From: Minisyncoccota bacterium
Lineage (GTDB): Bacteria > Patescibacteriota > Minisyncoccia > Phycocordibacterales > WO2-35-19
Direction of reading: 5' to 3'
DNA length: 64,000 bases
Assembly (NCBI GenBank): GCA_036517255.1
Contig: DATDXE010000014.1
Coordinates: forward strand, 9,994-73,993
In this document: positions 2,432-34,613 of the stretch, piece after piece
Position numbering within the stretch: the stretch's first letter is position 1
How the letters are laid out: the number at the start of each line of letters is the position of its first letter
Program-made: the position numbers and the translations under genes
The notes under the pieces: model-generated
Told to the model about the DNA's origin: nothing
Database searches by the model: none
The model's input: the letters and a program-made list of their open reading frames with translations, nothing else

Positions 2432-3280
2432 ATGCCGAGTCGTAAAGTCATATCACTGTTCATTGTTTGTGTTGCCTTAGTGGTATCTATTATTATTGCT
2501 TCAGGAATCAAAAGCCCATCTACTATCGCTTTAAACACAGGCCTCTTATCAAAAGGGCCAGAAATAAATTTGCCTCAAAATACAAACTGGGAAGGAGACG
2601 TTTCCGCTCTTTCCTTAGCAGAAGTTAACGTTTCCGAAATACAAAAATCCTCTACTGGCAATACAACTGACGCTATCGCAGAGTCTCTTATGTCAAATTA
2701 TCTTGCCTTGCGACAAAATGGGGAATTAAATAACGGATCAGTACAAAAATTAATAGACCAAGCATCAGATTTCAGTGACGATACTGGCGCTACAAAAAAA
2801 ACATACTCAAGTAAGGACATTGTGGTTTCGGTCGACAATAGCAAAGAAGCAACAAAAGAGTATGGCACAGCACTTGGTAATATATTAAAAATAAATAACT
2901 CTAGTCAGAAAGGTCGGGCGGAACTACAGGCGTTTAGAGAACTCACTTCAACAAAAGATATCTCAAAAGGAAAGGAATTAAAAATAATAGGTGAGGATTA
3001 CAAAAAAATAGCCCAGAGCTTTGCAAAAATTAAGGTGCCATCTTCTTACGTAGAGTCACATTTAATATTCATTAATAGCATAGAAGGCCTAGGTGGAGCT
3101 GTAAATGATATGGCTAAAGTTTTAGAAGATCCAATAAAAGGTCTTTCTGGAATCGGAATATACCAGAGCAACCTTTCGATCATGCTATTAGAGATGAATA
3201 GAATAAGGGTAAAAATATTGAAAGATGGGGTCGTTTATAAACAAGGAGAACGTGGTTATTACCTATATTACGGAATATAA
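2432..3280 (+). CDS. hypothetical membrane-anchored/secreted protein
   Basis: N-terminal hydrophobic helix then Ser/Thr/Asn-rich extracellular-like region; co-directional with downstream T4SS-like cluster. Confidence 0.4.
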   Translation: MPSRKVISLFIVCVALVVSIIIASGIKSPSTIALNTGLLSKGPEINLPQNTNWEGDVSALSLAEVNVSEIQKSSTGNTTDAIAESLMSNYLALRQNGELNNGSVQKLIDQASDFSDDTGATKKTYSSKDIVVSVDNSKEATKEYGTALGNILKINNSSQKGRAELQAFRELTSTKDISKGKELKIIGEDYKKIAQSFAKIKVPSSYVESHLIFINSIEGLGGAVNDMAKVLEDPIKGLSGIGIYQSNLSIMLLEMNRIRVKILKDGVVYKQGERGYYLYYGI

Positions 3281-3299
3281 TGAATAAGAATCAAGAAGT

Positions 3300-4583
3300 A
3301 TGAACCAAGAATCAAGAAAAATAATCGCCAATTTTTTACTTTTTTCTGTGATTGGTATATCACTTTCACCTCTTTTTACAAGAAAAGCAGAGGCTCAGTG
3401 GGTAGTATACGATCCAGCAAATTTTGCTGTCAATGCCATGACAGCGGCAAACACTACGGCCAACACATGGGGTAAAGAGTTTGGTCTAGACACCATCGCC
3501 TTCATTATCATCAACATGATAATCGAAAGAGTAGCTGCTTCCACAGTCAACTGGATAAACAGCGGCTTCCAAGGAAGCCCCGCTTTCGTTACCAACCCTG
3601 AAGCCTATTTCAAAAAAATAGGGGATCAGGTGGCAGGACAACTGATTTTTAACCACCCCGATACCCGTTTTATGTGTGCTCCGTTCAAAGCTCGGGTACA
3701 AATTGCTCTTTCCCAGGCTTACCTCAACCCATTTGGCAATTTCCAATGTTCTCTTTCGAGAGTAGTGAGAAATTTTGATAATTTTATGAATGATTTTTCC
3801 GATGGAGGATGGGAGGGATTCATCGAATTAACACAGAATAGCCAAAACAATCCTCTTGGAAGTTTTAATCAACGAATGAATCAGATCAATCTTTCAGTAG
3901 GAAACAGCCTAGGCCAAGCCAACAAAGAACTTGACTGGGGGAAAGGATTTTTGTCGTTTAGAAAACCTTGTACTAAACTGAACGAGTTTGAAAGCAGAGA
4001 GTTTTTGACTGATGAGCAGTATGACGCACTACCATGTTTGGACAGCCCACCGATCGAAACACCGGGGAGTGTAGTCGAAAGCCAACTCAATCAAACCCTT
4101 CAGATTGGTAATAGTAGGCTACAGGTGGCAGATGAAATAAATGAAATAATAAGCGCTCTTTTGAACCAACTTGTGGGCAAGGCTTTGGGAGGATTACTTT
4201 CACTCGGCAAACCTGACCCCTCAAATGCAAATAGCCAAAGTTATCTAGAACAACTGCAAACAGCGACAGAAAACAACGATGCCGACCCTTATTACAATAC
4301 GAGTAACAACAATAGGATAAGAGATCTAAGCACAAATATAGAAAACCAGACAACGAACCTTGGAAATTCACTCGACTCAGCAGAAGATATCGGAAATTCT
4401 GTTTTCGGAGGAAATTATGTTCCCCCACCTGACACAAGCGGTTTCGGCGCAGGAACTGGTGAGACCGGGGGAAATGGAGGGTCGGGTAACACTGTCACTC
4501 TGCCTGACGGCACGGTAGTAAATTGTGCTAGCCCACAAACAGAGCCTGGTCTTGCGGCCTGCATAAGCGCAGGAAAGATATAA
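3300..4583 (+). CDS. hypothetical secreted protein, first gene of T4SS-like cluster
   Basis: Signal peptide-like N-terminus (LLFSVIGISLSPLFTRKAEAQ), Gly/Asn-rich C-terminus, translationally coupled to downstream VirB6-like gene. Confidence 0.45.
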   Translation: MNQESRKIIANFLLFSVIGISLSPLFTRKAEAQWVVYDPANFAVNAMTAANTTANTWGKEFGLDTIAFIIINMIIERVAASTVNWINSGFQGSPAFVTNPEAYFKKIGDQVAGQLIFNHPDTRFMCAPFKARVQIALSQAYLNPFGNFQCSLSRVVRNFDNFMNDFSDGGWEGFIELTQNSQNNPLGSFNQRMNQINLSVGNSLGQANKELDWGKGFLSFRKPCTKLNEFESREFLTDEQYDALPCLDSPPIETPGSVVESQLNQTLQIGNSRLQVADEINEIISALLNQLVGKALGGLLSLGKPDPSNANSQSYLEQLQTATENNDADPYYNTSNNNRIRDLSTNIENQTTNLGNSLDSAEDIGNSVFGGNYVPPPDTSGFGAGTGETGGNGGSGNTVTLPDGTVVNCASPQTEPGLAACISAGKI

Positions 4584-4586
4584 AAG

Positions 4587-6848
4587 ATGTCAAAAAAACT
4601 GATTACAATTTTGTTCCTGACACTAACACTAGGAGTATCTTTTTCTCCAATGTTTTCGAATAATGTTACTGCACAACTTACTGAAGAACAGCAGGCAATT
4701 CTGGAAAGGGCTGGAAGATCAGAAAGAGGGCAGCTAACTCAGGAAGAGTCAGCAGATCTAGAAAGTTTGTCGGCCAGAGGTAATTCTAGCTGCGATCTAT
4801 TACTTAATTTTAATGCCTGCGTAAAACAATTTTTAAGTGGATTAGCAGAGCTCCTGCTTACAATCGGAGCTTTGATACTTGCACTAGCTGGAAATATTTT
4901 TAATCTCGTCTTGAGCTTTACCATAGTAGAGTTTGCGGGCCAGATAAATAACGCAGAGGGACTAGGCGGAGCTATAAATAGCGCCTGGAGCACACTAAGA
5001 GACATCGGAAATATTATTTTCATTTTCGTACTCCTCTGGGCAGGCATACAAACTATCCTTGATATTGGTGGGGATTTGAAAAAAACAATAGTAAACATAA
5101 TACTTATCGGCCTTATAGTAAACTTCAGCCTTTTCATTACCAAAGTAGTAATAGATACCTCCAATATTGCGGCAGTCGGATTTTATAATTCGATCATGAA
5201 TAGCGGAGAGGCTGGAAGAACAGTACCGACAATAACATTGGCCGGAATAGATTTTGAAACAAGAGATTTTGCTGGAGTTTTTCTTCGTTTTACCGGAGTT
5301 CAGAGTTTTTTTAAAGCAGATATTCTAACTGGGGCAAATGATGACATATGGGGGAAAAAACCTTTCGTCACCGGCATACTGGGCATGATAACCATGATAG
5401 TCATGGCTATAGTTCTTTTTGTCGCAGCCATTATGTTCCTGGCAAGATTTATCATACTTCTATTCCTGATGATTTTGTCCCCTGTGGCTTTTATTGCTTT
5501 CATATTGCCAGCAATGAGAGGCAAGTTTAAAGAATGGTGGGACACACTAATAAGCCAGGCGTTTTTTGCACCATATTTTATGATCCTGATTTGGGTAGCA
5601 TTCAAAGTAATGGCTGGAGCAAGTGGAGCAATAGGAACACGAGAACAGAGCTTTGCTGGTATAGCCAATTCACCTTTTAGTGCCATCGGCCTTGTGTTCA
5701 ATTTTGCTTTAGTCATGGGCCTCACCATCATGGCCCTGGTCCTCTCCAAACAACTAGCCGGCAAAACCAAAGGCTTTGGAGCTGTTGCGGGATTTGTGGG
5801 TGGAGCCACTATCGGTGTCGCAGGCATGGCCGCAAGACAAACTGTGGGTAGGGGATCAAGAATGTTGTTAGACAGTAAATACAAAGACAGATTAGCAAAA
5901 ACATCATACGGAAGAGGTGCGTTGTGGATTGCGAATAAAGGACAAAAATCAAGTTTCGATGTAAGAGGAATTTCTGACTCTAAACTAGGGAAGGCAACTG
6001 GAGCTAAAAACTTACTCGGTGGGATAGGAGATATGAGTGGTAAAGATGGCTACAAAAAAGCTGTGGAGGATAATGCAAAAGCAAAAGCTCAATATGCTAA
6101 AGATGTTTATGGTTCCACAGCACAAGAAGAAAAAGCTCATAAAGACGCAAAAGAAAAAACTAAAGAAACAAAAGAAACTTCGGCAGAATCATACAAGAAT
6201 GCTAAAGGTAAAGAAAAGAGCGAGGCTCAAAATAGTGTGAACGAAGCAGAAAACAATAAGAAAAAAATAGAAATACTAGTAAAAGAAAAGAGAGAAGCTC
6301 ATGAAAAATTAGGAGTTGTAGCTGGTAGCCCTGCCGAAATAGCGGCAAAGAAAGAACTGGACGAAGCAAATGTAAAACTTGCCGAAGCTGAAACAAAACG
6401 AGCGGAAGAAATGGAAAAGAAAACTAAAATAGACGAAGGTAATTATTCTGACGCGACAAAGGAACTCGGAAAAGTAGCAGAAGAAGCTGAAAAAGCATGG
6501 AAAAATCTCAAGTCAGCAGGGGAAGCAAGAATGCGAGAATTTGCCGATAGAGTAGAAAAGAAAAACAAAATAATGGGTAGAGCCGCTATGGGAGGAATAA
6601 TAGGAGGAGTAGCGGCCGGACCACTTGGAGCTGCAATAGGAGCTGCCCTTGGAGGAGTGGTGGGAGCTGCAATCAAACAAGGGGTACGAGGCAACATAGA
6701 GGCGGCAAGAGCAATTAGAAAGGCGGCGGGAGGTAAAACAGAAGAAGAAGAGGCGGCAGAGATTTTGAAAAAATTGGATAAGAAAAAGAAAGAGGCAGAA
6801 GGAAAAAGTGATGAAGATAAAGGTGAGGCAAAACCTAAAGAAAGTTAA
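4587..6848 (+). CDS. VirB6/TrbL-like polytopic membrane protein with long Lys/Glu-rich coiled-coil and glycine-zipper C-terminus
   Basis: Signal peptide plus at least 6 predicted TM helices in first 400 aa, charged KEKE repeats, GGIIGGVAAGPLGAAIGAALGGVVGAAI glycine zipper; position in cluster with VirB4. Confidence 0.45.
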   Translation: MSKKLITILFLTLTLGVSFSPMFSNNVTAQLTEEQQAILERAGRSERGQLTQEESADLESLSARGNSSCDLLLNFNACVKQFLSGLAELLLTIGALILALAGNIFNLVLSFTIVEFAGQINNAEGLGGAINSAWSTLRDIGNIIFIFVLLWAGIQTILDIGGDLKKTIVNIILIGLIVNFSLFITKVVIDTSNIAAVGFYNSIMNSGEAGRTVPTITLAGIDFETRDFAGVFLRFTGVQSFFKADILTGANDDIWGKKPFVTGILGMITMIVMAIVLFVAAIMFLARFIILLFLMILSPVAFIAFILPAMRGKFKEWWDTLISQAFFAPYFMILIWVAFKVMAGASGAIGTREQSFAGIANSPFSAIGLVFNFALVMGLTIMALVLSKQLAGKTKGFGAVAGFVGGATIGVAGMAARQTVGRGSRMLLDSKYKDRLAKTSYGRGALWIANKGQKSSFDVRGISDSKLGKATGAKNLLGGIGDMSGKDGYKKAVEDNAKAKAQYAKDVYGSTAQEEKAHKDAKEKTKETKETSAESYKNAKGKEKSEAQNSVNEAENNKKKIEILVKEKREAHEKLGVVAGSPAEIAAKKELDEANVKLAEAETKRAEEMEKKTKIDEGNYSDATKELGKVAEEAEKAWKNLKSAGEARMREFADRVEKKNKIMGRAAMGGIIGGVAAGPLGAAIGAALGGVVGAAIKQGVRGNIEAARAIRKAAGGKTEEEEAAEILKKLDKKKKEAEGKSDEDKGEAKPKES

Positions 6849-6851
6849 AGC

Positions 6852-7376
6852 ATGAACAGCGAAACAGAAAAAATAATAGAGGAGCGCTTTACTCAACTAC
6901 CTAATACTTTGAGTGATTTTGTGGCAAATAAGGATTGGCGATCTACGGTAAATAGGATTGGGGAACAGAGTGGAATATCAGAAGAAAAATTACTGAAGTT
7001 ACGAAATGAGGTATTTATGGTATTACTCTGTTTCGAAAATTGGCAAGATTTAAAAAAAAATATAGTCGACAACCTTTTAATTGAAGATAGCACCGCACGC
7101 AAAATTACTGATTCCATAAATGGTTCAATTTTAGGTTCAGTCATGAAAGAAATTAAATCAGTTTGGGCTGAAATTCAAAAAGAACCTACGGAAGTAAAAT
7201 CCTACGACTCGTTTGAACAGACTATATTGAGACAAGCGCAGGCGATGAGGCCGATAGGGGAGAGAATCATGAATCAAGAGGCTAGTATCAAGAATGGGAC
7301 AGAAGAACAACAAAGAAGAGAGTTGCCAAAGCAATATGTTGGGAACAACGACCCGTATAGGGAATCGATCGAGTAA
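6852..7376 (+). CDS. hypothetical protein
   Basis: ORF immediately coupled to upstream gene; no recognisable motif. Confidence 0.35.
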   Translation: MNSETEKIIEERFTQLPNTLSDFVANKDWRSTVNRIGEQSGISEEKLLKLRNEVFMVLLCFENWQDLKKNIVDNLLIEDSTARKITDSINGSILGSVMKEIKSVWAEIQKEPTEVKSYDSFEQTILRQAQAMRPIGERIMNQEASIKNGTEEQQRRELPKQYVGNNDPYRESIE

Positions 7377-7764
7377 TTATGCTATAATTATAGATGTAGA
7401 AGATGATTTTAAACAAGGAACAAATCGATACTACATCAAAGTATTTTTCTGATATTTCTAAAGTTCTTTTTGCTTCTATTGTCATCGGGTACTTCATCCA
7501 TTCAGAATCTGTTAGTGTAACCTTACCAGCTTTTGTTTTCGGATCTATTATTAGTGTGGCGTCATTCCTCTTCAGTATAAAAATGTTAAGCCATAACAAA
7601 TAATCATGAACTTACTTACCATATACATAGTGATAGGAATTATTTTGACAATTATTTTTATAATCGCCATGAAGGCTAAAAAATAGTATGGAACTAAACT
7701 ATATAATTGCCTCTGCTGTAGTCATAATTATGTTGCTTGTAGGTTTCTTTTATAAAGGAGGGCA

Positions 7765-8187
7765 CTAGGCTCCAGAGGTTTTATCGTTTTCTTCGGCTTT
7801 GCGAACATCGAGGCTCCAGGTCAGGTCTTTCAATTTACTATTTGAAAGATGAGGAACTAGAAGCTCTACAGGAGTAGAAGGAGCTATTTTGTTTTCATTT
7901 TCTTTTTTAGGTATTTTCTTCCAAATATAAAGCTTTTCACCAAAAAAATATCGAATCATAGCTTCAAGTTGTAAAACGAAAGGTTGATTGTTGGGCTTAT
8001 AAAAGGCCAGGGCAATAGAGAGAGCAATAAAAGGAGCGGCTAAGACAAAAGCCAGGAATTTCGGAAGTAAGGTAATGAAGACAACTAGGACACCCACCCC
8101 TCCAGCAAGATAAACAAATTGCTTGATGGTAAGAGGGCCAAAAATTTTATCTTCAACATCGATAAATTGGGGCACTTGGAATCGCAT
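7765..8187 (-). CDS. PrgI/VirB3-like small membrane protein of T4SS
   Basis: N-terminus MRFQVPQFIDVEDKIFGPLTIKQFVYLAGG matches PrgI-family signature (QVP..EDKI.G.LT.RQ..YL) followed by two TM helices. Confidence 0.55.
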   Translation of the reverse strand: MRFQVPQFIDVEDKIFGPLTIKQFVYLAGGVGVLVVFITLLPKFLAFVLAAPFIALSIALAFYKPNNQPFVLQLEAMIRYFFGEKLYIWKKIPKKENENKIAPSTPVELLVPHLSNSKLKDLTWSLDVRKAEENDKTSGA

Positions 8188-8223
8188 ATAACAATTATAC
8201 TAACATGTGATAAAATTTAATAC

Positions 8224-8859
8224 ATGCCAGCTGTCAAAAGCAATGCGACTCAAAACTTCGTACCTATAGAGGACATCCGGGAAGGGGTCATCACGCTAAA
8301 CAATGGGGGAATGGTGGCCATTGTCATGGCTTCTTCTCTAAATTTTTCCCTTAAATCAAATGATGAAAGGCAGGCCATATTGCTCCAGTTTCAAGATTTC
8401 TTAAATTCCCTCGATTTTTCAGTCCAAATTTTTATCGAGTCGCGCAGACTCGACATCAGACCTTACATCGCTCTCCTTGAGGAAAGGTATAAGGCCCAAA
8501 CAAACGACCTGATGAAAATACAAACGGAGCAATACATAAATTTTATAAAGAATTTTACCGAATCGACCAGTATTATGACTAAAAACTTTTTTATCGTCGT
8601 ACCTTATGGCGCAGCTATAGTGAACACTTCCCAAAGTATATTCAGTTTCTTTGGAAGCAGTGGTAAAAATGAAAAGGAAAAATCAGAGAGTGCTTTCAAA
8701 GAAAATAAAATCCAGCTAGAACAAAGGATATCGGTAGTGGAACAGGGACTGGTACGCTGTGGCATAAGAGTAGCCAGACTCGGAAACGAAGAAGTGGTCG
8801 AATTATTTTATAAAATATTCAATCCAGGCGAAACGGAAAAGCCTATCAAAACTGGCTAG
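8224..8859 (+). CDS. hypothetical protein upstream of VirB4
   Basis: ORF ending 7 nt before virB4-like start; no motif recognised. Confidence 0.35.
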   Translation: MPAVKSNATQNFVPIEDIREGVITLNNGGMVAIVMASSLNFSLKSNDERQAILLQFQDFLNSLDFSVQIFIESRRLDIRPYIALLEERYKAQTNDLMKIQTEQYINFIKNFTESTSIMTKNFFIVVPYGAAIVNTSQSIFSFFGSSGKNEKEKSESAFKENKIQLEQRISVVEQGLVRCGIRVARLGNEEVVELFYKIFNPGETEKPIKTG

Positions 8860-8865
8860 CCAGTT

Positions 8866-10713
8866 TTGATCAGAATAAAGAATTACGAATCAATGTTTGA
8901 TTTTTTAAAGAAAAAACAAGGGGAGAGAGAAGAAGTATCGACATCGATACTGCCGTCGGGAGTATACGAGGCTTCTTCATTGGAGCTGAGAGACGTAATA
9001 GCCCCGAGTGCTCTCAAAGTTACTCCTAAAGAACTATCTTTGGGAGAAAAAATAGTGAGAAGTTTCTTTGTCATTTCCTACCCACGATTTCTGGGGGAGG
9101 ACTGGTTTTCACCAATCATAAACCTTGATCGAGTATTCGATATTTCTATATTCGTCCACCCGCTCGAAACATCAAAAATACTTCGCTCATTTCAAAAAAA
9201 GGTAGCTGAAGTACAAAGCCAGATACGAAGCAGGGAAGAAAAAGGCCTAGTGCGTGACCCAATGCTCGACACTGCCTATCAGGACCTAGAGAGCCTGCGC
9301 GATCAGCTACAGCAAGCCCAGGAAAAGATGTTTGACGTGGGAGTATACATATCGATATACGCCGATTCGTCGGACGAGTTGGATAAAATAGAGTCAGAAA
9401 TGAAATCGATACTCGAATCAAAGTTGGTATATGTAAAACCAGCTCTTTTCCAACAGGAACAAGGTTTCCGAAGTGTATTACCTATAGGGAGCGATGAACT
9501 TTTAGTACACTCAAAATTAAACTCCACTCCACTTTCATCACTCTTTCCTTTTATTTCCTTCGATCTCACCTCGGATAAGGGCATACTATACGGAATCAAT
9601 CGCCACAACTCATCCCTAGTGCTCTTCGATCGCTTCTCTCTGGAAAATTATAATTCGGTCATATTCGCAAAATCAGGTTCCGGTAAGTCATATATGACTA
9701 AACTGGAAATTTTGAGAACTCTCATGTTCGACGCTGATGTCATAGTGCTCGACCCGGAAAGAGAATACGAATATATGGCCGAAGCTGTAGGAGGCAGGTA
9801 TTTCAACATATCTTTAAACTCCGACCACCACATAAACCCATTTGAATTACCGATACCAGCTGAAGATGAGTCAAGTGCTTCCGTACTTCGATCGAACATC
9901 ATAAACCTGGTAGGTCTTTTCAGAATCATGCTAGGAGGCCTCACGGCCGAGGAAGATGCTTTGATCGATAGAGCCATCACCGAAACATATGCACTGAAAG
10001 ATATCACTCCCGATTCTGATTTCAGATCGGTGGAGCCACCACTCCTTTCTGACTTTGAGCTAGTGCTCGGCGGTATGGAAGGAGGTGAGTCGCTTGCCCA
10101 GAGAATTTCAAAATATACAAAAGGTACCTGGTCAAACTTCATCAATAAACCATCGAATGTCGATATAAACAAAAAATTTATCGTTTTCTCTCTGCGTGAC
10201 ATGGAAGACGAGCTGAAACCGGTAGCTATGTACATCGTCACTCACTACATATGGAACGCCGTGCGCAGAGATATAAAGAAGAGACTCTTGGTAATCGACG
10301 AAGCTTGGTGGATGATGAAAAGTGACGATACGGCTTCTTTCCTACTCAGTATGGCAAAAAGAGGTAGGAAATATTACCTGGGGCTTGCCACTATCACTCA
10401 AGACGTGGACGACTTTCTCAAGTCGCCTTACGGTATGCCCATTGTAACCAACTCATCTATACAGGTGCTCCTGAAGCAGTCAGCCACCTCAATGGATCGC
10501 CTGCAAGAAGTATTTAACCTCACTGATGAAGAAAAATACTTGCTTCTGGAGTCAGGAGTAGGGGAAGGCATATTCTTTGCCGGCTTGAAGCATGTAGCTA
10601 TAAAAATAATCGCCTCGTACACGGAAGATCAAATAATAACCTCTGATCCTTCTCAAATACTTGCCATCAAGAAGGCGAAAAAGGAATTGGAAGAAGCGGG
10701 GACAACAAAGTAA
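8866..10713 (+). CDS. virB4: VirB4/TrbE/CagE-family type IV secretion ATPase
   Basis: Walker A FAKSGSGKSYMTK, Walker B LLVIDEAWWMM, C-terminal KRGRKYYLGLATITQDVDDF typical of VirB4. Confidence 0.85.
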   Translation: MIRIKNYESMFDFLKKKQGEREEVSTSILPSGVYEASSLELRDVIAPSALKVTPKELSLGEKIVRSFFVISYPRFLGEDWFSPIINLDRVFDISIFVHPLETSKILRSFQKKVAEVQSQIRSREEKGLVRDPMLDTAYQDLESLRDQLQQAQEKMFDVGVYISIYADSSDELDKIESEMKSILESKLVYVKPALFQQEQGFRSVLPIGSDELLVHSKLNSTPLSSLFPFISFDLTSDKGILYGINRHNSSLVLFDRFSLENYNSVIFAKSGSGKSYMTKLEILRTLMFDADVIVLDPEREYEYMAEAVGGRYFNISLNSDHHINPFELPIPAEDESSASVLRSNIINLVGLFRIMLGGLTAEEDALIDRAITETYALKDITPDSDFRSVEPPLLSDFELVLGGMEGGESLAQRISKYTKGTWSNFINKPSNVDINKKFIVFSLRDMEDELKPVAMYIVTHYIWNAVRRDIKKRLLVIDEAWWMMKSDDTASFLLSMAKRGRKYYLGLATITQDVDDFLKSPYGMPIVTNSSIQVLLKQSATSMDRLQEVFNLTDEEKYLLLESGVGEGIFFAGLKHVAIKIIASYTEDQIITSDPSQILAIKKAKKELEEAGTTK

Positions 10714-10727
10714 ACTGACTAAAATAA

Positions 10728-11189
10728 ATGGTTGAAGTCACAAATATAGAAGAACATAGAAATAGATACCCGAAATATTCGCAAGTGCGTCAAAATACCG
10801 AGGAGCAAGAAGAACCAGAAAAAAAACAAAGGATTAAACTATGGATGGGAGCGTGCCTTATAGCGGCAGCTGGATCTATCGACCTGATACAAGCGTTACT
10901 TACTCTTGTTGCTATCGGAATAGTAATTTCTCCAATCATATCCGTGGGAGCAACATTCTTATTTTGGCTATGGCTGACTATTTTAGGAGTACCTTTTGGC
11001 ACAAGCCCGAAAAGGCTAGCTATAATGGCTACACAAGCTGTGGCTGAACTTTTTCCTGCTATTGACGCACTTCCAATACTAACAACAGGAACAATATTGT
11101 TAGTCTTAATCACCAGATCAGAAGACAGGGGTGGTATAATTGGAAAAGTCGCCAGTAAAGCGCAGGGCACTTTGAAGAAAGCGGCCTAG
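10728..11189 (+). CDS. hypothetical small membrane protein (T4SS cluster)
   Basis: Two to three hydrophobic helices; follows virB4. Confidence 0.35.
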   Translation: MVEVTNIEEHRNRYPKYSQVRQNTEEQEEPEKKQRIKLWMGACLIAAAGSIDLIQALLTLVAIGIVISPIISVGATFLFWLWLTILGVPFGTSPKRLAIMATQAVAELFPAIDALPILTTGTILLVLITRSEDRGGIIGKVASKAQGTLKKAA

Positions 11190-11201
11190 TTTGTATATTT
11201 T

Positions 11202-12215
<1,014 letters not shown>

Positions 12216-12223
12216 TTATACAA

Positions 12224-13018
12224 ATGATTAAACTTGCTCAACAACGACAACAACTGGAGTACAAAGTGCTTGCTCCGTTACCTGGTACAACCATTGGTAA
12301 TAGAGGGGAGAAAGCTGACTTACAAAGTTATATTCCTGGTATTTTTAATTTGATTATAGGTCTGGCGGCAGTCATCGCCGTAACTAAAATAATTTTTGGC
12401 GGTTTCCAATACATAACCACTGACGCCATTGCTGGTAAGTCGGAAGGAAAGAAACAAATCCAAAGTGCGGTGTATGGGCTTATCATGATAATCGCTTCTT
12501 GGCTTATTCTCTACACCATAAACCCCCGCCTCCTAACATTTGATTTGAATGTGGGAACGGTCAATGTACCAGAAGCCGCAGTTACAAGTGGCACACTTGC
12601 TGCGACAGTCAGTTGTAACGACTGCATACACGTTACCGATGGAAGCATCGAGTTCAGAAATACGGGAACAAACTTAAGTGCCGGTATTATACCTCAAACA
12701 ACTTCATTAGATTTTGGTATGGATAATAACGGTATTAATTGGTGGATAAGCGAAGGTAATCCACCCACGGGAACCCACAGAGATCCATGTCATAATAATG
12801 GCACTTGTTTTGACGCAAAAATAGATAACATGTTGACTCTTAACAAAGATAGAGCCGATGAGATTAATATCTTTATACGTGAAGCAAAACAAAGTCAGTT
12901 TTCTGTTGTTTCTTTCGAAGTGACTAGCCAAGAACATGTGGCAGAATGGGCAAAATTGGGGGTAACTGCAATTTATAACGAAAATGCTACCGGTCCACAC
13001 TTTCATGTAGAAAAATAA
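12224..13018 (+). CDS. putative VirB2/TrbC-like pilin with C-terminal extra domain
   Basis: Charged leader followed by two hydrophobic helices (IPGIFNLIIGLAAVIAVTKIIFGGF ... AVYGLIMIIASWLILYTINP) resembling conjugative pilin topology; then 150 aa extracellular domain. Confidence 0.3.
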   Translation: MIKLAQQRQQLEYKVLAPLPGTTIGNRGEKADLQSYIPGIFNLIIGLAAVIAVTKIIFGGFQYITTDAIAGKSEGKKQIQSAVYGLIMIIASWLILYTINPRLLTFDLNVGTVNVPEAAVTSGTLAATVSCNDCIHVTDGSIEFRNTGTNLSAGIIPQTTSLDFGMDNNGINWWISEGNPPTGTHRDPCHNNGTCFDAKIDNMLTLNKDRADEINIFIREAKQSQFSVVSFEVTSQEHVAEWAKLGVTAIYNENATGPHFHVEK

Positions 13019-14256
13019 TGTCCACTAAAAAGAAAATTTTAATATTGGGAATAGTCGTGATGGTGGGACTAGCGGCGTTTTTGGTTTTGTCATCCGAAAA
13101 AAGTAGCACTCCGATGGAAGAAAGAGGGTTTAGTTTAAGAAATTTCTTCCCCTTTGGTAATCCAGAGACTGATTTCGTAGAAACACAGAATACAAACGAG
13201 GAAGAAGTGGGACCAGAAACAAATTTTACCAATGATGGAGAAACAAAATTGCCTAAACTTAGAAAAATTTCAAACGAGCCTGTAGCTGGAGCAGTATTAT
13301 TGAATTCCGGTTCAACTACAATCGTAAGATTTGTTTACAAAAGTACTGGAAACGTATACGAGGCTCGTTCTGACTCTTCTACAATAAGTCGTATTACAAA
13401 TACTACCATACCTAAAATAAACAGGGCCATTTGGCTACCTGATGGAAGCGGCTTTCTGACCCAAAAAGCAGGAGAGAGCGGATTTGTCGAAACTTCTTAT
13501 ATTAGACTTAGATCGAGCACAGCTACTTCAAGTGAAATCACGACTCGCTATGAAACAGTGACCTCAAATTTACCTTCAGACATAGAAGAAATAGCTCCCA
13601 GTCCTGATAGTAAAAAAATATTTTATTACACCGCCGAGGCCGGAATGAAAGGTTTCTTAGCTAATCCTGATGGCACCAACCCATCTCTGGTTTATAGTGG
13701 CACTGTAGCAGAATGGACAATAGAGTGGTTTGGAACAAATTCGATACTACTTACAACTAAAGCTAGTTTCGGTTCTGAATCATTCGGCTATTTACTTAAT
13801 CCAACAAACAAATCTACAAGCAAGATATTCGGGGGAATCATGGGAGGGAGCGCCCTCACAAGAGGAGATGGTAAATATATTTTGACCTCTTCTGGAGGAA
13901 GCTCTCCCTTCTTACTATCCATCAATACAGCTTCTTCAGAGACAGCAGCAGATCTTTTGGTAAAAACTTTTAGTGAAAAGTGTGCTTGGAAAGGAAATAC
14001 ATTGTTTTTGATTTGTGGTATACCCAAAGTAATACCTTCCGGTAATTACCCTGATGCTTGGTACCAGGGGATACTCAGCACAAACGATTTCGTCGACATG
14101 ATAGATATAGAAAGAAAAACTGTAACTCCTATATCCGACCCAGAAAAAGAAACGGATGAAAAAATAAATGTAGATAAAATGATGATTTCTAAAGACGGGC
14201 GATACGCCTCTTTCCTAAACAAAGAGGATCAATCGTTATGGCTTTTGGAAATTTAA
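13018..14256 (+). CDS. secreted PD40/TolB-like beta-propeller repeat protein
   Basis: N-terminal TM anchor; repeats of type SPDGKKIFYY / ISKDGRYASFL. Confidence 0.4.
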   Translation: MSTKKKILILGIVVMVGLAAFLVLSSEKSSTPMEERGFSLRNFFPFGNPETDFVETQNTNEEEVGPETNFTNDGETKLPKLRKISNEPVAGAVLLNSGSTTIVRFVYKSTGNVYEARSDSSTISRITNTTIPKINRAIWLPDGSGFLTQKAGESGFVETSYIRLRSSTATSSEITTRYETVTSNLPSDIEEIAPSPDSKKIFYYTAEAGMKGFLANPDGTNPSLVYSGTVAEWTIEWFGTNSILLTTKASFGSESFGYLLNPTNKSTSKIFGGIMGGSALTRGDGKYILTSSGGSSPFLLSINTASSETAADLLVKTFSEKCAWKGNTLFLICGIPKVIPSGNYPDAWYQGILSTNDFVDMIDIERKTVTPISDPEKETDEKINVDKMMISKDGRYASFLNKEDQSLWLLEI

Positions 14257-25058: not shown

Positions 25059-26738
25059 TTATCCCCATAGGTCGATTACTCGCTCCAACTCTTCTAATGA
25101 AGTTACTCCTTTTATTACTTTTATGACGCCATCCTGCTTCATGGTAAGCATGCCTTGATTTTCGGCGGCTTGATTTATCTCTCGTTCGCTTGGATTTTCT
25201 CTAACTATCTTTTCTATATTCTCGTCGGTAATAATAGCTTCGAATATTCCAATTCTGCCTTTGTATCCTGACATATTACACTTTTCGCAACCGCCAGGTT
25301 CAAAAAATTTTTCATAATGTAAATTATCTGCAAAAACTCTATCCTTTACGCCAGAGAGTATTTTGTCGACGATTTCTTTTTCTTGCGGTTTTGGAATGTA
25401 TTCTTTACGACAATCGGGGCAAAGCTTCCTTACTAGTCTCTGGGCCATGGCGATATTTATAGCTGAAGTAATAACTTTTGAGTTTACTCCGAGGTCTACA
25501 AGCCTGGGGAATGTGCCGGCGGCATTGTTAGTGTGTAGGGTAGAAAAAACTAAGTGGCCGGTCAAGGCAGCGTTTACTGCTATCTCTGCTGTTTCGCTGT
25601 CTCTAATTTCGCCGACCATTATGACATCTGGATCCTGACGCAAGGCGCTGCGCAAACCTTCGAGAAAAGTGTAACCTTCTTTTTCGTTTGTTTGAGTCTG
25701 CACTATTCCAGGAAGATGGTATTCAATCGGATTTTCGATGGTGATTATTTTTATATCAGGTGTGTGTATTTTTTTTAGGAATGCATAGAGAGTAGTGGTT
25801 TTACCGCTTCCGGTTGGGCCGGTGTTTAATATCATGCCATTTGGTTTGCGAAGCTCGTGCAATATATTTTCCAGTAATTTATCGGGGATACCAAGTTCTT
25901 CAAGAGGGACAGAGATAGCGTTTGGATTGAGGACCCTTAGTACCACTGATTCACTATAAGCGCCTGGGATGATAGAGGAACGTATTTCTATCTCCTCATC
26001 CCTTATCTTGATACTGAACCGGCCATCCTGAGCTTTTTCTTTGGTGTTCAACTTCATTTCCGAAGTTAGTTTGATACGAGAAATAAGTAATTTATAAGTG
26101 TCGCTGTCGAAGTTCAAAATATCTTTCAGCACTCCATCGAGCCTGTAACGCAAACGCACATAAGTGTCCTCTGGTTCTAGGTGAACATCGGAAGCGTTGA
26201 GAGCGATCGCTCCAGCTAAAATTATTTCTAGTATTTTCGATATACGGTAGCTTTTCTTCTGGGATAGAACTTCCTCGATCATTTTCTTCACATCTTCTAT
26301 ATGGCGAACATTTTCAGTGATGGAGAGTATTTCTTCGTTGGAAATATCAATCGCTCCTGATTTGGTTTCGAAAGAATAGGAAAGATCTTTGTAGCGCAAC
26401 CAGACTTTTTCTAAACTATCTTTAGAGGACATAAAAAGATTTGGGATAAAACCGCGTCTCTTCATATCCTCGATCACTTCGATTGTCATCGGATTGTTGG
26501 GAGAGAATATGGCTAAAGCTACTCTTTTGTCCACGATGTTAAATGGAGCCACTTCCGCTTTGCGAGCTACATCTTCCCTCACTACACGCAGAGCGTCGAT
26601 ATTGATAGGGGAGACAGAGAGGTCGATATAGGGCAAGCTATATTTTTTAGAAAGTTCTCGCGACAAATCTTCTTTTTCTGCATCGCGTATTTCATCCAAC
26701 TTCTGATTCTGCTTTTCTTCATTAAAAATAACAGTCAT
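25059..26738 (-). CDS. pilB: GspE/PilB-family type IV pilus assembly / secretion ATPase
   Basis: Walker A LNTGPTGSGKTTTLYA, Asp box, His box TGHLVFSTLHTNNAAG, N-terminal GSPII_E_N-like region, C-terminal CxxC...CxxC. Confidence 0.85.
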   Translation of the reverse strand: MTVIFNEEKQNQKLDEIRDAEKEDLSRELSKKYSLPYIDLSVSPINIDALRVVREDVARKAEVAPFNIVDKRVALAIFSPNNPMTIEVIEDMKRRGFIPNLFMSSKDSLEKVWLRYKDLSYSFETKSGAIDISNEEILSITENVRHIEDVKKMIEEVLSQKKSYRISKILEIILAGAIALNASDVHLEPEDTYVRLRYRLDGVLKDILNFDSDTYKLLISRIKLTSEMKLNTKEKAQDGRFSIKIRDEEIEIRSSIIPGAYSESVVLRVLNPNAISVPLEELGIPDKLLENILHELRKPNGMILNTGPTGSGKTTTLYAFLKKIHTPDIKIITIENPIEYHLPGIVQTQTNEKEGYTFLEGLRSALRQDPDVIMVGEIRDSETAEIAVNAALTGHLVFSTLHTNNAAGTFPRLVDLGVNSKVITSAINIAMAQRLVRKLCPDCRKEYIPKPQEKEIVDKILSGVKDRVFADNLHYEKFFEPGGCEKCNMSGYKGRIGIFEAIITDENIEKIVRENPSEREINQAAENQGMLTMKQDGVIKVIKGVTSLEELERVIDLWG

Positions 26739-32062: not shown

Positions 32063-32135
32063 CCGCCCGTAGCTCAGTCGGTAGAGCAGCTCCCTTTTAA
32101 GGAGAGGGTCGCAGGTTCGATTCCTGCCGGGCGGA
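32063..32135 (+). tRNA. tRNA-Lys (anticodon TTT), no encoded CCA
   Basis: Manual cloverleaf: acceptor ccgcccg/cgggcgg, anticodon loop cttttaa, T-loop ttcgatt. Confidence 0.85.
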
Positions 32136-32138
32136 CAA

Positions 32139-33183: not shown

Positions 33184-33861
33184 ATGACCGAACAACAGAC
33201 ACCGAAACTAATGGGGGTTCTCGTCGAGCACCAAGACGCATTCTCCCCGCTACCGATCGAAGACGCCCAATGGGTGATTCGGAATCCCAAAGAAGCAATC
33301 TCACTCTTCTTGATTGCGGTGAAAAACCGAGTACGAGAAGCGGCGACTACGATCAAAAACATTCTCTCTCCAGTCAAAAAGATCACCATCGCGGCGACGG
33401 CGGAGAAGAGGACGGAGGAGTGTTTCGCGGACAGCAAGAAGTACTACCGCGACCCCAGCGTTCTCTCGTTGCTTCCGGAATTTCAGCCAGCACGGGGGGT
33501 CGAGCAAGGGCAAGTGAGTCAGCTCAACGAGAGATCCAAGTTTTTGGGGATGGTGCAGAGTCTCCTCGGTGTAATGGAAGACGGTATCGCCGTTCTCTCA
33601 CGGCTCATCATTGAGTCTTTCCACATCTATACCTTGACCCAAATCGAGCAGCTCGTCGAGCGGCAAGAGGCAGGTGAGGATGTAGGCCTTCTCACGAACG
33701 GCTGGGGCAACTTCTTTCTGGTGCTGAATCGGGAAGGTAGCGTCTCGGTCGTCGATGTCATTCGGGCTGGCAGTCAGTGGCTCTTCTTCGCTTACGTCCT
33801 CGGCTTCGTCCGCGTCTGGTCTGTCGGGCGCCGCTTCTTCTCTCGCAACAAGACCCTGTGA
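33184..33861 (+). CDS. DGR target protein 1 (variable protein; VR at C-terminus), GC-rich
   Basis: 3' 111 nt match downstream TR 34116-34226 except at TR adenines; last 37 codons hypervariable-type Asn-derived positions. Confidence 0.8.
   Translation: MTEQQTPKLMGVLVEHQDAFSPLPIEDAQWVIRNPKEAISLFLIAVKNRVREAATTIKNILSPVKKITIAATAEKRTEECFADSKKYYRDPSVLSLLPEFQPARGVEQGQVSQLNERSKFLGMVQSLLGVMEDGIAVLSRLIIESFHIYTLTQIEQLVERQEAGEDVGLLTNGWGNFFLVLNREGSVSVVDVIRAGSQWLFFAYVLGFVRVWSVGRRFFSRNKTL
33739..33849 (+). repeat. DGR variable repeat VR1
   Basis: 111 nt aligned to TR1 with about 20 mismatches, every mismatch at a TR adenine (TR AAT/AAC codons). Confidence 0.9.
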
Positions 33862-33895
33862 TCCTTTGAATCTTTTTGGACACTTGGTCTTACTT

Positions 33896-33921
33896 CCCCA
33901 GTCTGTTTCGGCAGGCTGGGG
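33896..33921 (+). promoter_or_regulatory. GC hairpin 47 nt downstream of VR1 (ccccagtctg-tttcgg-caggctgggg), candidate DGR homing hairpin/cruciform
   Basis: 10-bp stem with one G-T position, located just 3' of VR/IMH as in characterised DGRs. Confidence 0.45.
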
Positions 33922-34115
33922 ATTTCATTTATAATAAATAAGAATACGCTGGCATCTTTGGGTTATTCTAAAGGTGGCGATTCAAAGCCAACAATTTTTG
34001 TCGGCTTCAAAAAATAAATAGTTGGTGCACTCCTTCAAGAAGTTAAAAACTTCAAAGGCGAAATCAACTCAGAGAGAATTCAATGAGTGGTGACTATAGA
34101 AGGTGGGGTGTACAA

Positions 34116-34226
34116 AGCGTCTCGGTCGTCAATGTCAATCGGAATGACAGTCAGTGGAACTTCTACGCTTACGACCTCGGCAACGACAACGTCTGGAATG
34201 TCGAGAACCGCTTCTTCTCTCGAAAC
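34116..34226 (+). repeat. DGR template repeat TR1 (adenine-rich, noncoding)
   Basis: Invariant partner of VR1; contains AAC/AAT at all variable positions. Confidence 0.9.
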
Positions 34227-34597
34227 TATCTGTTTTCCCCAAAGGAATTAACTCCTGAGGGGTTTTTCTTTTCTAAATATTCTTTCCAACCAGAGAGCAT
34301 TTTGCCTGCATCTACCAGTACTGGAGAAATTCTTACATATTTTTTGTCTACAAGTATTTTACATTCCCACATGAGGAGAAGGAAAAACTTGGCCAAATCA
34401 TTTTTTATCATAGCCTCTGATACCAGTTCAATTTTTCGAATTCCTTTGCTGTAGGCGGCTCTAAAAGTAAGATCGAGAGTTTCTAAAAGAAGTCTGTCTA
34501 TTTTTACCCCTATCGTTTGCCTGTGGCTTTTAGAAATGTGAGGAAGTATCTCCTGCCAGACCTTATACCCAAGTTTTAAACACTCTAGCACTGGCAA
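34226..34597 (-). CDS. avd: Avd-like accessory variability determinant (four-helix-bundle protein), TTG start, stop overlaps TR1 end
   Basis: 123 aa, basic helical protein with Avd/23S-IVS four-helix-bundle pattern (YKVWQ..., LLLMWECKIL); between TR and RT. Confidence 0.6.
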   Translation of the reverse strand: MPVLECLKLGYKVWQEILPHISKSHRQTIGVKIDRLLLETLDLTFRAAYSKGIRKIELVSEAMIKNDLAKFFLLLMWECKILVDKKYVRISPVLVDAGKMLSGWKEYLEKKNPSGVNSFGENR

Positions 34598-34605
34598 AGA
34601 GCTGC

Positions 34606-34613
34606 GGGGGGGG
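34606..34613. repeat. G8 homopolymer tract between avd1 start and RT1 start
   Basis: gctgcggggggggtagc in otherwise AT-rich spacer; paralogous G10 tract at same position in second cassette. Confidence 0.8.

What the first reader, a model, noticed from the sequence alone, without database searches (positions are those of the whole stretch)
3300..14256. Type IV secretion/conjugation-like gene cluster (VirB4, VirB6/TrbL-like, PrgI/VirB3-like, pilin-like) without relaxase or coupling protein
The cluster contains a clear VirB4 ATPase (8866-10713) and a PrgI-family small membrane protein on the opposite strand (7765-8187). It also has a large polytopic VirB6/TrbL-like protein with a KEKE/glycine-zipper tail, a two-TM pilin-like protein and several secreted proteins. 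No VirD4, relaxase or VirB11 is visible. This minimal set is typical of the poorly understood T4SS-like systems of small-genome episymbiotic bacteria, proposed to mediate DNA uptake or host interaction.
Basis: partly seen in the sequence, partly recalled or inferred. Interest (0 to 1): 0.55.

Follow-up and report, generated by a model that had tools for sequence, protein, structure and literature searches.

The report
Patescibacterial type IV secretion gene cluster
This is the chromosomal type IV secretion-like machine already described in ultra-small episymbiotic bacteria (Patescibacteria), here in a Paceibacteria genome next to the replication origin; it is an ordinary member, but its "pilin" carries a cell-wall-peptidase-like domain.

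Summary
No relaxase or coupling protein was found anywhere in the 64 kb.

The cluster lies between ksgA and yidC-rnpA-dnaA-dnaN. It keeps this order in about 60-80 Paceibacteria genomes, where VirB4 is 78-86% identical, more conserved than DnaA. It is therefore a vertically inherited core system, not a mobile element. This system was published in 2023-2025 (PMC10633639, PMC12102498), so it is a new member of a known kind.

I found three details absent from the papers I read:
- The pilin gene is a fusion. A conserved two-helix pilin module carries a swappable C-terminal domain, here a zinc-peptidase-like Hedgehog/DD-peptidase (LAS) fold.
- The secreted protein upstream of the VirB6-like gene has the DUF4141/TrbJ N-terminal motif.
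- prgI is inverted in this lineage, and the inversion is real (8 independent assemblies).

The likely role is a host-contact conduit. That part is inferred.

The parts
2432..3280 (+). g282: bitopic membrane protein (N-terminal TM helix plus about 250 aa outside); first gene of the conserved block; function unknown
   Evidence: Syntenic between ksgA and g427 in 33 loci at 21-36% identity. No Pfam, NCBIfam or PDB match. No similarity to R388 VirB8.
3300..4583 (+). g427: secreted protein whose mature N-terminus AQWVVYDPANF matches DUF4141 and the TrbJ N-terminus; candidate VirB5-position (stalk or tip) partner of the VirB6-like protein
   Evidence: Pfam DUF4141 E 1.3e-6, 28.1 bits, below the gathering score of 30. 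NCBIfam TrbJ PRK13874 E 6.7e-7, residues 14-52 only. About two fifths of the 120 listed homologues carry PF13605. DUF4141 genes sit beside traJ in Bacteroides conjugative transposons. No similarity to the body of R388 TrwJ.
4587..6848 (+). g753: extended VirB6-like polytopic membrane protein, with a charged coiled-coil tail of about 260 aa, a glycine-zipper segment and a KE-rich end
   Evidence: AF2 model, mean pLDDT 69.5. The Foldseek PDB top 4 hits are all TrwI/VirB6 chains (prob 0.90-0.97, TMt 0.42-0.46, E 0.2-0.5). hhalign aligns residues 289-351 with TrwI 171-232 (P 0.003, prob 10%). Only 2 of 51 family members give weak TrbL or TrbL_4 hits, and 9 of 51 hit Gly-zipper.
6852..7376 (+). g174: small soluble protein, poorly conserved, function unknown
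   Evidence: Detected in 18 of 80 loci at 23-38% identity. No family match.
7403..7603 (+). 66-aa hydrophobic ORF (followed by two hydrophobic mini-ORFs of about 26 codons, 7607-7768); not seen in relatives
   Evidence: Read from the sequence. Called as a gene in independent assemblies. No tblastn hit in the 80 loci.
7765..8187 (-). PrgI/VirB3-like small membrane protein, inverted relative to the rest of the cluster
   Evidence: Pfam PrgI E 1.2e-11. Of 75 related loci with a PrgI match, 74 have it on the same strand as virB4 and only L038 has it on the opposite strand. The inverted orientation is present in 8 independent assemblies carrying the identical protein. No flanking inverted repeat.
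8224..8859 (+). TrsD/TraC-like protein: free-standing homologue of the VirB4 N-terminal domain
   Evidence: NCBIfam: N-terminal part of VirB4_plasma E 2.7e-12, CD1110 E 1.3e-5, TrsD E 2.7e-5. PF26593 TraC-like. A separate gene in all 77 relatives, with varied gaps and frames.
8845..8870 (.). Perfect 26-nt palindrome (ATCAAAACTGGCT/AGCCAGTTTTGAT) centred on the trsD stop codon; role unknown
   Evidence: Unique in the window, with 0 matches expected by chance. Palindromes with arms of at least 9 nt occur at this junction in 6 of 78 loci, against 0 of 78 control segments.
8893..10713 (+). VirB4-family ATPase (the ORF opens at TTG 8866; ATG 8893 is the probable start)
   Evidence: conju_CD1110 374 bits, above cutoff. 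P-loop_TraG, AAA_10. 78-86% identical in the 80 best of 591 related loci. N-terminus conserved from MFDFLKKK.
10728..11189 (+). g153: small polytopic membrane protein, function unknown
   Evidence: Translation. Detected in 27 of 80 loci. No family match.
11202..12215 (+). g337: secreted protein made of Ig-like beta-sandwich repeats (wall-spanning or adhesive accessory, inferred)
   Evidence: Signal peptide read from the translation. Found in 75 of 80 loci. The family profile hits T4 Hoc Ig domains weakly (E 0.001). 7 of 38 members hit BiPBP_C and 2 hit Ig_3.
12224..13018 (+). g264: VirB2-like T4SS pilin module (two TM helices, residues 33-99) fused to a C-terminal Hedgehog/DD-peptidase (LAS) fold domain (residues about 128-264); this copy lacks the signal peptide that most orthologues have
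   Evidence: T4SS_pilin above the gathering score. AF2 mean pLDDT 84, C-domain blocks 83-98. Foldseek top hits are Hedgehog N-domains, prob 1.00, TMt 0.55-0.60, E about 1e-3. H185, D197 and E232 are invariant; C189, H190 and H259 are conserved in at least 90% of sequences. hhalign aligns these with the HxxGxAxD motif of type B orthologues, of which 2 of 11 hit Peptidase_M15_4.
13018..14256 (+). g412: N-terminally membrane-anchored protein, probably a beta-propeller (TolB/DPPIV-N-like); last gene of the block
   Evidence: Found in 62 of 80 loci. The family profile hits the TolB propeller weakly (E 0.008). A few members hit DPPIV_N, DUF5050 or PD40.

Best explanation
**Identity (shown).** The cluster is a chromosomal, vertically inherited type IV secretion system of the Patescibacteria clade, derived from the monoderm MPF-FATA conjugation machinery. 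Here it sits in a Paceibacteria genome between ksgA and yidC-rnpA-dnaA-dnaN.
- The gene set is VirB4, a free TrsD-like N-domain protein, PrgI/VirB3, a VirB2-like pilin module and a VirB6-like polytopic protein.
- No relaxase or coupling protein lies within 64 kb.
- Order and position are conserved across many species.

**How it works (inferred).**
- VirB4, with TrsD, docks on PrgI and on a VirB6-like platform in the single membrane and powers assembly and transport.
- The secreted DUF4141/TrbJ-like protein, encoded directly upstream of the VirB6-like gene, may sit on that platform as VirB5 does in Gram-negative systems.
- The pilin-module protein inserts with its N- and C-termini outside. It displays a zinc peptidase-like domain that would cut peptidoglycan, either of the cell itself or of the host bacterium. 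That would make it a VirB1/PrgK-type function fused to the pilin.
- The Ig-like protein and the propeller-like protein would be extracellular accessories.
- The machine would serve contact with, and exchange of macromolecules with, a host cell. It would not serve conjugation.

The confidence given applies to the identity. The functional model is less certain.
For: - **Family assignments:**
- **Synteny:** the order uvrD-ksgA-...-yidC-rnpA-dnaA-dnaN is kept in 80 loci from Paceibacteria genomes.
- **Conservation:** VirB4 is 78-86% identical across these loci, against DnaA 57-70% and DnaN 40-55% in the same loci.
- **Composition:** GC is 0.37-0.43 in the cluster, like the rest of the window.
- **Missing conjugation parts:** no relaxase or T4CP.
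- **VirB6-like fold:**
- **Pilin-LAS fusion:**. This C-domain is almost confined to pilin fusions: 177 representative clusters among 1.84 billion proteins, and 9 of 10 sampled carry T4SS_pilin.
- **Literature:** the same system, including the dnaA proximity, TrsD, PrgI, VirB6 and VirB2-like genes and the missing relaxase, is described in PMC12102498. The T4SS and its pilins are essential for epibiotic growth in Southlakia epibionticum (PMC10633639; PMC12857230). Tubular structures at a parasite-host interface are reported in a 2026 preprint.
Against: - The function is not shown for any Paceibacteria.
- The VirB6 assignment rests on weak Foldseek E-values (0.2-0.5) and a model of moderate confidence. 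This protein has no significant TrbL/VirB6 profile hit.
- The VirB5-like reading of g427 rests on an N-terminal motif of about 25-40 residues, scoring below curated cutoffs. Nothing matches the body of VirB5.
- No VirB8-like protein was found.
- Peptidase activity is inferred from fold and conserved residues only. Some family members have Ser in place of the second His of HFH.
- A coupling protein may be encoded elsewhere in the genome. The literature reports T4CP homologues far from virB4 in most Patescibacteria.
- The window's pilin lacks a signal peptide and prgI is inverted, so expression and topology in this strain are not certain.
Confidence: 0.8

Rival explanations
1. The cluster is a decayed or cryptic integrative conjugative element (an ordinary Gram-positive-type conjugation module that lost its relaxase and coupling protein).
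For: The VirB4 scores best against a conjugation family (CD1110). PrgI, TrsD and T4SS_pilin are conjugation-system families.
Against: - The same gene order at the same chromosomal site beside oriC recurs in about 60-80 species.
- VirB4 is more conserved than DnaA.
- There is no integrase, relaxase or T4CP.
- GC content is like the surroundings.
- All the genes are intact.
Confidence: 0.03
2. The machine is a DNA (or RNA) import system, like the ComB T4SS of Helicobacter or the archaeal Ced system. It would supply nucleotides to an organism that cannot make them.
For: - There is no relaxase or T4CP, which import would not need.
- VirB4 gives weak matches to CedB and CedD.
- Import is the hypothesis favoured in PMC12102498.
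- A 2026 preprint links VirB4 to macromolecule transfer in an RNA-feeding parasite.
Against: - No nucleic-acid-binding component was recognised in the cluster.
- In Southlakia, comEC-dependent DNA uptake is dispensable while the T4SS is essential, so the essential role is at least not classical competence.
- Nothing in the sequence tells the direction of transport.
Confidence: 0.2
3. The system exports or displays protein effectors against the host cell. The VirB2-like module would be a conserved carrier for polymorphic C-terminal 'warheads' (LAS peptidases, coiled coils, Cys-rich domains) that breach or bind the host envelope.
For: - The N-terminal pilin module is conserved while the C-terminal domain is swapped among syntenic orthologues. 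By motif sorting (approximate), at least 19 of 64 are LAS-like, 10 are long helical, 12 are Cys-rich and 3 have almost no tail.
- The LAS fold and conserved metal-site residues.
- Wang et al. suggest protein export.
Against: - There is no variable immunity-like gene next to it. The downstream gene g412 is conserved.
- A housekeeping role in opening the cell's own wall for the apparatus (VirB1/PrgK-like) explains a peptidase equally well.
- There is no evidence of release or delivery.
Confidence: 0.2

Closest known systems
Patescibacteria-clade T4SS (Quinonero-Coronel et al. 2025, PMC12102498; Southlakia epibionticum SEML1_0006-0019, Wang et al. 2023, PMC10633639)
   Same: - VirB4 with a separate TrsD, PrgI/VirB3, VirB6-like and VirB2-like pilin genes close to virB4.
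- No relaxase or T4CP nearby.
- Chromosomal position next to dnaA, dnaN, rnpA and ksgA.
- The nearest relatives are all Patescibacteria.
   Different: - There is a single pilin gene fused to a LAS-fold domain, not an array of short pilins as in Saccharimonadia.
- A DUF4141/TrbJ-like secreted protein lies upstream of the VirB6-like gene. VirB5-type parts are not reported for the clade in the papers I read.
- prgI is inverted.
- The pilin has no signal peptide.
Monoderm conjugative T4SS, MPF-FATA class (pGO1/pSK41 TrsD-TrsE, pCF10 PrgH-PrgI-PrgJ-PrgK, CTn2 CD1110)
   Same: - A VirB4 of the CD1110 type.
- A free TrsD.
- PrgI.
- A polytopic VirB6/PrgH-position protein.
- A membrane-anchored cell-wall hydrolase, which is PrgK's role.
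   Different: - No relaxase, T4CP, oriT or recognisable VirB8-like protein.
- It has a VirB2-like pilin module, which Gram-positive systems lack.
- It is chromosomal and vertically inherited.
R388 / VirB-type Gram-negative T4SS inner-membrane complex and stalk (VirB3-VirB4-VirB5-VirB6-VirB2)
   Same: - The gene pair 'secreted protein with a TrbJ-like N-terminus, then a VirB6-like polytopic protein' echoes the virB5-virB6 and trbJ-trbL pairs.
- The best structural matches of g753 are R388 VirB6 chains.
   Different: - No VirB7, VirB9, VirB10 or VirB11.
- g427 has no detectable similarity to the VirB5 body.
- g753 carries a long charged tail.
LAS metallopeptidases (MEROPS M15 D-Ala-D-Ala carboxypeptidases, Hedgehog N-domain fold)
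   Same: - The fold.
- An H-x6-D motif plus a distal His and Glu.
- Sister domains hit Peptidase_M15_4.
   Different: - The domain is fused behind a T4SS pilin module.
- It has its own CxxC and CH..GTC cysteine pattern.
- It matches no Pfam peptidase family by sequence.
- The family is small (177 representative clusters).

Membership tests
Patescibacteria-clade T4SS (MPF-FATA-derived) | VirB4 ATPase of the MPF-FATA/CD1110 type whose nearest relatives are patescibacterial | tested here: met
   conju_CD1110 374 bits, above the 325 cutoff. The 80 best of 591 related genome loci are all Patescibacteria MAGs, at 78-86% identity. No phylogenetic tree was built.
Patescibacteria-clade T4SS (MPF-FATA-derived) | Separate TrsD homologue next to virB4 | tested here: met
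   8224-8859 matches TrsD and the VirB4 N-terminal part. It is a separate gene in 77 of 77 relatives.
Patescibacteria-clade T4SS (MPF-FATA-derived) | PrgI/VirB3 homologue near virB4 | tested here: met
   Pfam PrgI 45.5 bits against a gathering score of 27. Its orientation is inverted here.
Patescibacteria-clade T4SS (MPF-FATA-derived) | VirB6 homologue | tested here: inconclusive
   This protein has no significant TrbL/VirB6 profile hit. The Foldseek top 4 hits are VirB6 chains, but with E 0.2-0.5. hhalign prob is 10%.
Patescibacteria-clade T4SS (MPF-FATA-derived) | VirB2-like pilin gene near virB4 | tested here: met
   T4SS_pilin 31.3 bits against 26.6. Helical hairpin 33-65 and 69-99 in the model.
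Patescibacteria-clade T4SS (MPF-FATA-derived) | No relaxase or T4CP associated with virB4; chromosomal site near dnaA, dnaN, rnpA and ksgA | tested here: met
   (64 kb only). The rest of the genome could not be examined.
Conjugative T4SS (any MPF class) | Relaxase and type IV coupling protein acting with the mating-pair apparatus | tested here: not met
   None found among the 20 ORFs of at least 215 aa scanned outside the cluster, nor by tblastn with TrwB and TrwC in the window and 80 loci. This is limited to the sequence in hand.
VirB2/TrbC pilins | Small (about 70-120 aa mature) protein with a cleaved signal peptide and two hydrophobic helices that polymerises into a pilus | tested here: inconclusive
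   The two helices and the Pfam match are met. Size is not met: 264 aa with a 140-aa globular C-domain. The signal peptide is absent in this copy but present in most orthologues. Polymerisation is not testable here.
VirB5/TrbJ family | Secreted protein with the conserved mature N-terminus and a helical-bundle body, encoded next to virB6/trbL | tested here: inconclusive
   The N-terminal motif hits are below curated cutoffs (DUF4141 28.1 bits against 30; TrbJ 28.6 against 225). The adjacency to the VirB6-like gene is met. The body shows no similarity to TrwJ.
LAS zinc peptidases (M15 / Hedgehog-DD-peptidase fold) | Hedgehog/DD-peptidase fold with an H-x6-D ... H metal site | tested here: met
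   Foldseek prob 1.00, TMt 0.55-0.60 to Hedgehog N-domains. D197 is invariant; H190 and H259 are conserved in at least 90% of 34 sequences. These align with the M15_4-like type B domains. Metal binding and catalysis are not testable here.

The most novel reading that the evidence does not exclude
In Paceibacteria the single 'pilin' gene of the T4SS is not a pilus subunit. It would be a conserved membrane or conduit module carrying polymorphic extracellular heads: LAS peptidases of two types, long coiled coils and Cys-rich domains. These heads would be used to open or grip the host cell wall. Together with a DUF4141/TrbJ-like protein seated on the VirB6-like platform, this would form a VirB5/VirB6-type stalk in a bacterium with a single membrane. 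That would be a lineage-specific, host-range-determining attack interface built from T4SS parts.
Probability: 0.25. Interest if true: 0.6.

Novelty: new member of a known kind. Interest (0 to 1): 0.3.

Why it matters
The Patescibacteria T4SS is thought to be central to how a very large, mostly uncultured bacterial radiation lives on other cells. Its substrate and direction of transport are unknown. This locus adds no new kind of system.

The comparison around it does give concrete handles:
- An enzyme-like domain fused to the pilin module, which can be expressed and assayed.
- A variable C-terminal 'head' that could track host range.
- A candidate VirB5-position protein.

It also shows that VirB4 is under stronger constraint than DnaA across Paceibacteria.

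Tried and rejected
- **In-frame TAG between trsD and virB4 (8857-8859).** I considered readthrough, a pseudogene, or a link to a 'suppressor tRNA'. I rejected all three. TrsD is a separate gene in 77 of 77 relatives, with varied gaps and frames. VirB4 starts at the conserved MFDFLKKK. The 'tRNA-Stop' is tRNA-Lys(UUU).
- **prgI inversion as an assembly artefact or invertible switch.** It is not an artefact, because 8 independent assemblies agree. There are no flanking inverted repeats in the window and no assembly with the other orientation, so there is no sign of switching. In L038 a similar inversion is flanked by inverted repeats beside a four-helix-bundle gene.
- **Sequence searches that gave nothing useful.** g264, A2, A3, A6 and A7 against PDB sequences. 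g427 against plasmids by tblastn. g282 against VirB8. g427 against VirB5.
- **Failed look-up.** RP4 accession BN000925 is not in the collection.
- **Promoter and terminator scan.** No enrichment over shuffles, so it was uninformative.
- **Mobile-element reading.** Rejected on synteny and conservation.


Full report
**1. What is there**

Window 2432-14256 is a tight block of thirteen ORFs. All are on the + strand except one.

Family searches give these assignments:
- **8866-10713, VirB4-family ATPase.** NCBIfam conju_CD1110 E 1.4e-111, 374 bits, above its 325-bit cutoff. Pfam P-loop_TraG E 2.5e-27.
- **8224-8859, free-standing VirB4 N-terminal-domain protein.** It matches TrsD, the CD1110 N-terminus and the Mbov_0397 N-terminus. 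The precomputed Pfam label is PF26593 TraC-like.
- **7765-8187 (minus strand), PrgI/VirB3.** E 1.2e-11, above the gathering score.
- **12224-13018, T4SS_pilin.** 31.3 bits against 26.6.
- **3300-4583, short N-terminal match only.** DUF4141 E 1.3e-6 and the TrbJ N-terminus E 6.7e-7, both below curated cutoffs.

The flanks are housekeeping genes. uvrD and ksgA lie upstream. yidC, rnpA, dnaA and dnaN lie downstream. GC content in the block (0.37-0.43) is like the rest of the window.

**2. No conjugation-specific parts in 64 kb**

- Pfam scans of 20 of the ORFs of at least 215 aa outside the cluster found ordinary chromosomal genes: TyrRS, RuvB, PilB, Pol I, MurE-like, Fpg and others. They also found two reverse transcriptases. 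None is a relaxase or coupling protein. A 217-aa ORF, a 203-aa ORF and all shorter ones were not scanned.
- tblastn with R388 TrwB (VirD4) and TrwC (relaxase) found nothing in the window or in 80 related loci.
- TrwD (VirB11) hits only the type IV pilus ATPase PilB at 25059-26738.
- The rest of the genome was not available.

**3. Whose genome, and is the block mobile?**

A scan of one genome per species found 591 loci encoding a close VirB4 relative. The best 80 are all Patescibacteria MAGs (Zambryskibacteria, Taylorbacteria, Parcubacteria/Paceibacterota), at 78-86% identity. Identical proteins are on record as hypothetical proteins VJH67_02090 and VJH67_02095 of a Candidatus Paceibacterota MAG.

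In these loci the order is kept: uvrD, ksgA, g282, g427, g753, (g174), prgI, trsD, virB4, (g153), g337, pilin, g412, yidC(-), rnpA(-), dnaA, dnaN.

In the same loci DnaA is 57-70% identical and DnaN 40-55%. VirB4 is therefore the most conserved protein of the neighbourhood. This is a vertically inherited core system at the replication origin, not an integrated element.

**4. It is a described system**

- Quinonero-Coronel et al. 2025 (PMC12102498) surveyed 3,035 Patescibacteria genomes. They report:
  - a monophyletic VirB4 clade nested in MPF-FATA;
  - TrsD, PrgI/VirB3, VirB6 and VirB2-like genes near virB4;
  - almost no relaxases, and T4CP homologues mostly far from virB4;
  - in Paceibacteria, proximity to dnaA, dnaN, rnpA, ksgA and rpmH.
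- Wang et al. 2023 (PMC10633639) showed by Tn-seq that the T4SS and its pilin genes are essential for epibiotic growth of Southlakia epibionticum. They also noted the lack of coupling and relaxase proteins.
- A 2025 review restates this and speculates on a conduit for uptake or signalling.
- A 2026 preprint reports tubular structures at a parasite-host interface.

**5.

- **TrsD was missed.**
  - TrsD and VirB4 are in the same frame, separated by a single TAG.
  - This is coincidence. In 77 relatives they are separate genes with gaps from -4 to several hundred bases and in all frames.
  - VirB4's conserved N-terminus (M..FDFLKKK) places the start at ATG 8893.
- **The VirB6 call does not pass a profile test.**
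  - This protein has no TrbL/VirB6 hit.
  - Only 2 of 51 family members give weak TrbL or TrbL_4 hits.
  - The family profile finds only coiled-coil noise in PDB sequences.
- **Support for VirB6 comes from fold and context.**
  - An AF2 model (mean pLDDT 69.5) has R388 TrwI/VirB6 chains as its four best Foldseek matches out of 350,542 chains (prob 0.90-0.97, TMt 0.42-0.46, E 0.2-0.5).
  - hhalign aligns residues 289-351 with TrwI 171-232, including an invariant Trp (P 0.003 for the single comparison, prob 10%).
  - I regard VirB6-like as likely, not proven.

**6. The pilin gene is a fusion with a swappable head**

- The AF2 model (34 sequences, mean pLDDT 84) shows a helical hairpin (33-65, 69-99), a disordered linker, and a confident alpha/beta domain from about residue 128 to 264, with 10-residue block means of 83-98.
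- Its best PDB matches are Hedgehog N-terminal domains (2ibg, 2wg3, 2wg4; prob 1.00, TMt 0.55-0.60, E about 1e-3). This is the Hedgehog/DD-peptidase (LAS) zinc-hydrolase fold.
- In 34 homologues C131, C134, E177, H185, D197 and E232 are invariant. C189, H190, G193, T194, C195, H259 and F260 are conserved in at least 90% of sequences. Together they give an H-x6-D ... E ... H pattern.
- Among syntenic orthologues the N-terminal pilin module is conserved but the C-terminal part changes wholesale. Sorting by sequence motifs is approximate and gives:
  - about 10 of this 'type A';
  - about 9 (an undercount) of a 'type B' with the classical HxxGxAxD ... HWH motif;
  - about 10 long helical tails;
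  - about 12 Cys-rich domains;
  - 3 with almost no tail.
- Type B members all hit T4SS_pilin, and 2 of 11 hit Peptidase_M15_4.
- hhalign aligns the type A H185, H190 and D197 with the type B H180, H186 and D193.
- A search of 1.84 billion representative proteins with the type A domain alone found only 177 clusters. Nearly all are 270-350 aa with the domain at the C-terminus. Of 10 sampled, 9 carry T4SS_pilin just upstream.
- The papers I read do not mention such fusions.
- The loop between the helices is Lys-rich. By inference from the positive-inside rule, both termini, and so the peptidase-like domain, face outward.
- This copy lacks the signal peptide that most orthologues have.

**7. Other components**

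- **g427.** About two fifths of the 120 listed homologues carry DUF4141. In Bacteroides conjugative transposons DUF4141 proteins are listed beside TraJ (PMC10434189). TraJ is the VirB6 homologue there, by my own knowledge. The TrbJ match points the same way. The pair g427-g753 thus echoes virB5-virB6, but the body of g427 shows no similarity to R388 VirB5.
- **g337.** Looks like tandem Ig-like domains.
- **g412.** A membrane-anchored probable beta-propeller.
- **g282, g174 and g153.** These remain unassigned.
- **VirB8.** No VirB8-like protein was recognised.

**8. Oddities of this lineage**

- **prgI inversion.**
  - Of the 75 related loci with a PrgI match, 74 have prgI on the same strand as virB4, directly upstream of trsD. 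Only L038 shares the opposite orientation seen here.
  - The inversion is seen in 8 independent assemblies that carry the identical PrgI, so it is real. The gene is intact.
  - No flanking inverted repeats remain.
  - In L038 the inverted gene is bracketed by inverted repeats next to a four-helix-bundle gene.
- **Palindrome.**
  - A perfect 26-nt palindrome sits on the trsD stop codon.
  - Long palindromes occur at this junction in 6 of 78 loci, against 0 of 78 controls.
  - Its meaning is unknown.

**9. Mechanism and verdict**

- **Shown:** identity, gene content, synteny, strong constraint, and absence of conjugation parts nearby.
- **Inferred:** a VirB4/TrsD motor on a PrgI and VirB6-like membrane platform; a possible VirB5-position protein; a pilin-module protein displaying a peptidoglycan peptidase (a VirB1/PrgK-type function); and extracellular accessory proteins. 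Together these would form a contact-dependent conduit to a host cell.
- **Not decided by the sequence:** the direction of transport and the substrate (DNA or RNA import, or protein export).
- **Verdict:** the finding is a correct recognition of a known system. It is a new member of a known kind, of modest interest, with a few testable details added.

Noticed in passing
window 33184-35640 and 52621-55203: There are two diversity-generating retroelements. The first has VR 33739-33849 (3' end of ORF 33184-33861), TR 34116-34226 and RT 34627-35640. The second has VR 53230-53345 (3' end of ORF 52621-53361), TR 53665-53780 and RT 54205-55203. All TR/VR mismatches fall on TR adenines (20 of 20 and 15 of 15). 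The two RTs are 61% identical.
   Followed up: yes
window 32063-32136 (+): ARAGORN calls a 'tRNA-Stop' with anticodon TTA. The Rfam alignment gives the anticodon loop CUUUUAA, so this is an ordinary tRNA-Lys(UUU). TAA is the commonest stop codon among the 25 genes I checked, 17 of 25.
   Followed up: yes
window 8845-8870: A perfect 26-nt palindrome is centred on the trsD stop codon and is unique in the window. Long palindromes recur at the trsD-virB4 junction in 6 of 78 related loci, against 0 of 78 control segments. L062 has a 48-nt one that is also centred on CTAG. It could be a regulatory hairpin or a small mobile palindrome.
   Followed up: partly
L001 8410-8810 and 9900-10000; L038 8395-9320: Some relatives carry a small four-helix-bundle gene (of the 23S rRNA intervening-sequence protein type, recognised from the reading only) inserted between cluster genes. 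It is bracketed by GTTAGT-rich inverted repeats. In L038 such repeats flank the inverted prgI.
   Followed up: partly
window 25059-26738 (-), 47286-48272 (+): Type IV pilus genes lie elsewhere in the window: a PilB-type ATPase (T2SSE with an MshEN domain) and a weak PilM-like protein.
   Followed up: no
window 12224-12290: This genome's pilin-fusion protein starts MIKLAQQRQQLEYKVLAPLPG and has no signal peptide. Most orthologues have a signal peptide of about 25-40 residues before the YxxLAPLPG motif. A few database homologues (P0004, P0040) also lack it.
   Followed up: partly
window 7403-7768: A 66-codon ORF and two ORFs of about 26 codons, all strongly hydrophobic, fill the space left of the inverted prgI. 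The last one overlaps the prgI stop codon in a shared CTAG. They have no counterpart in the 80 related loci.
   Followed up: no
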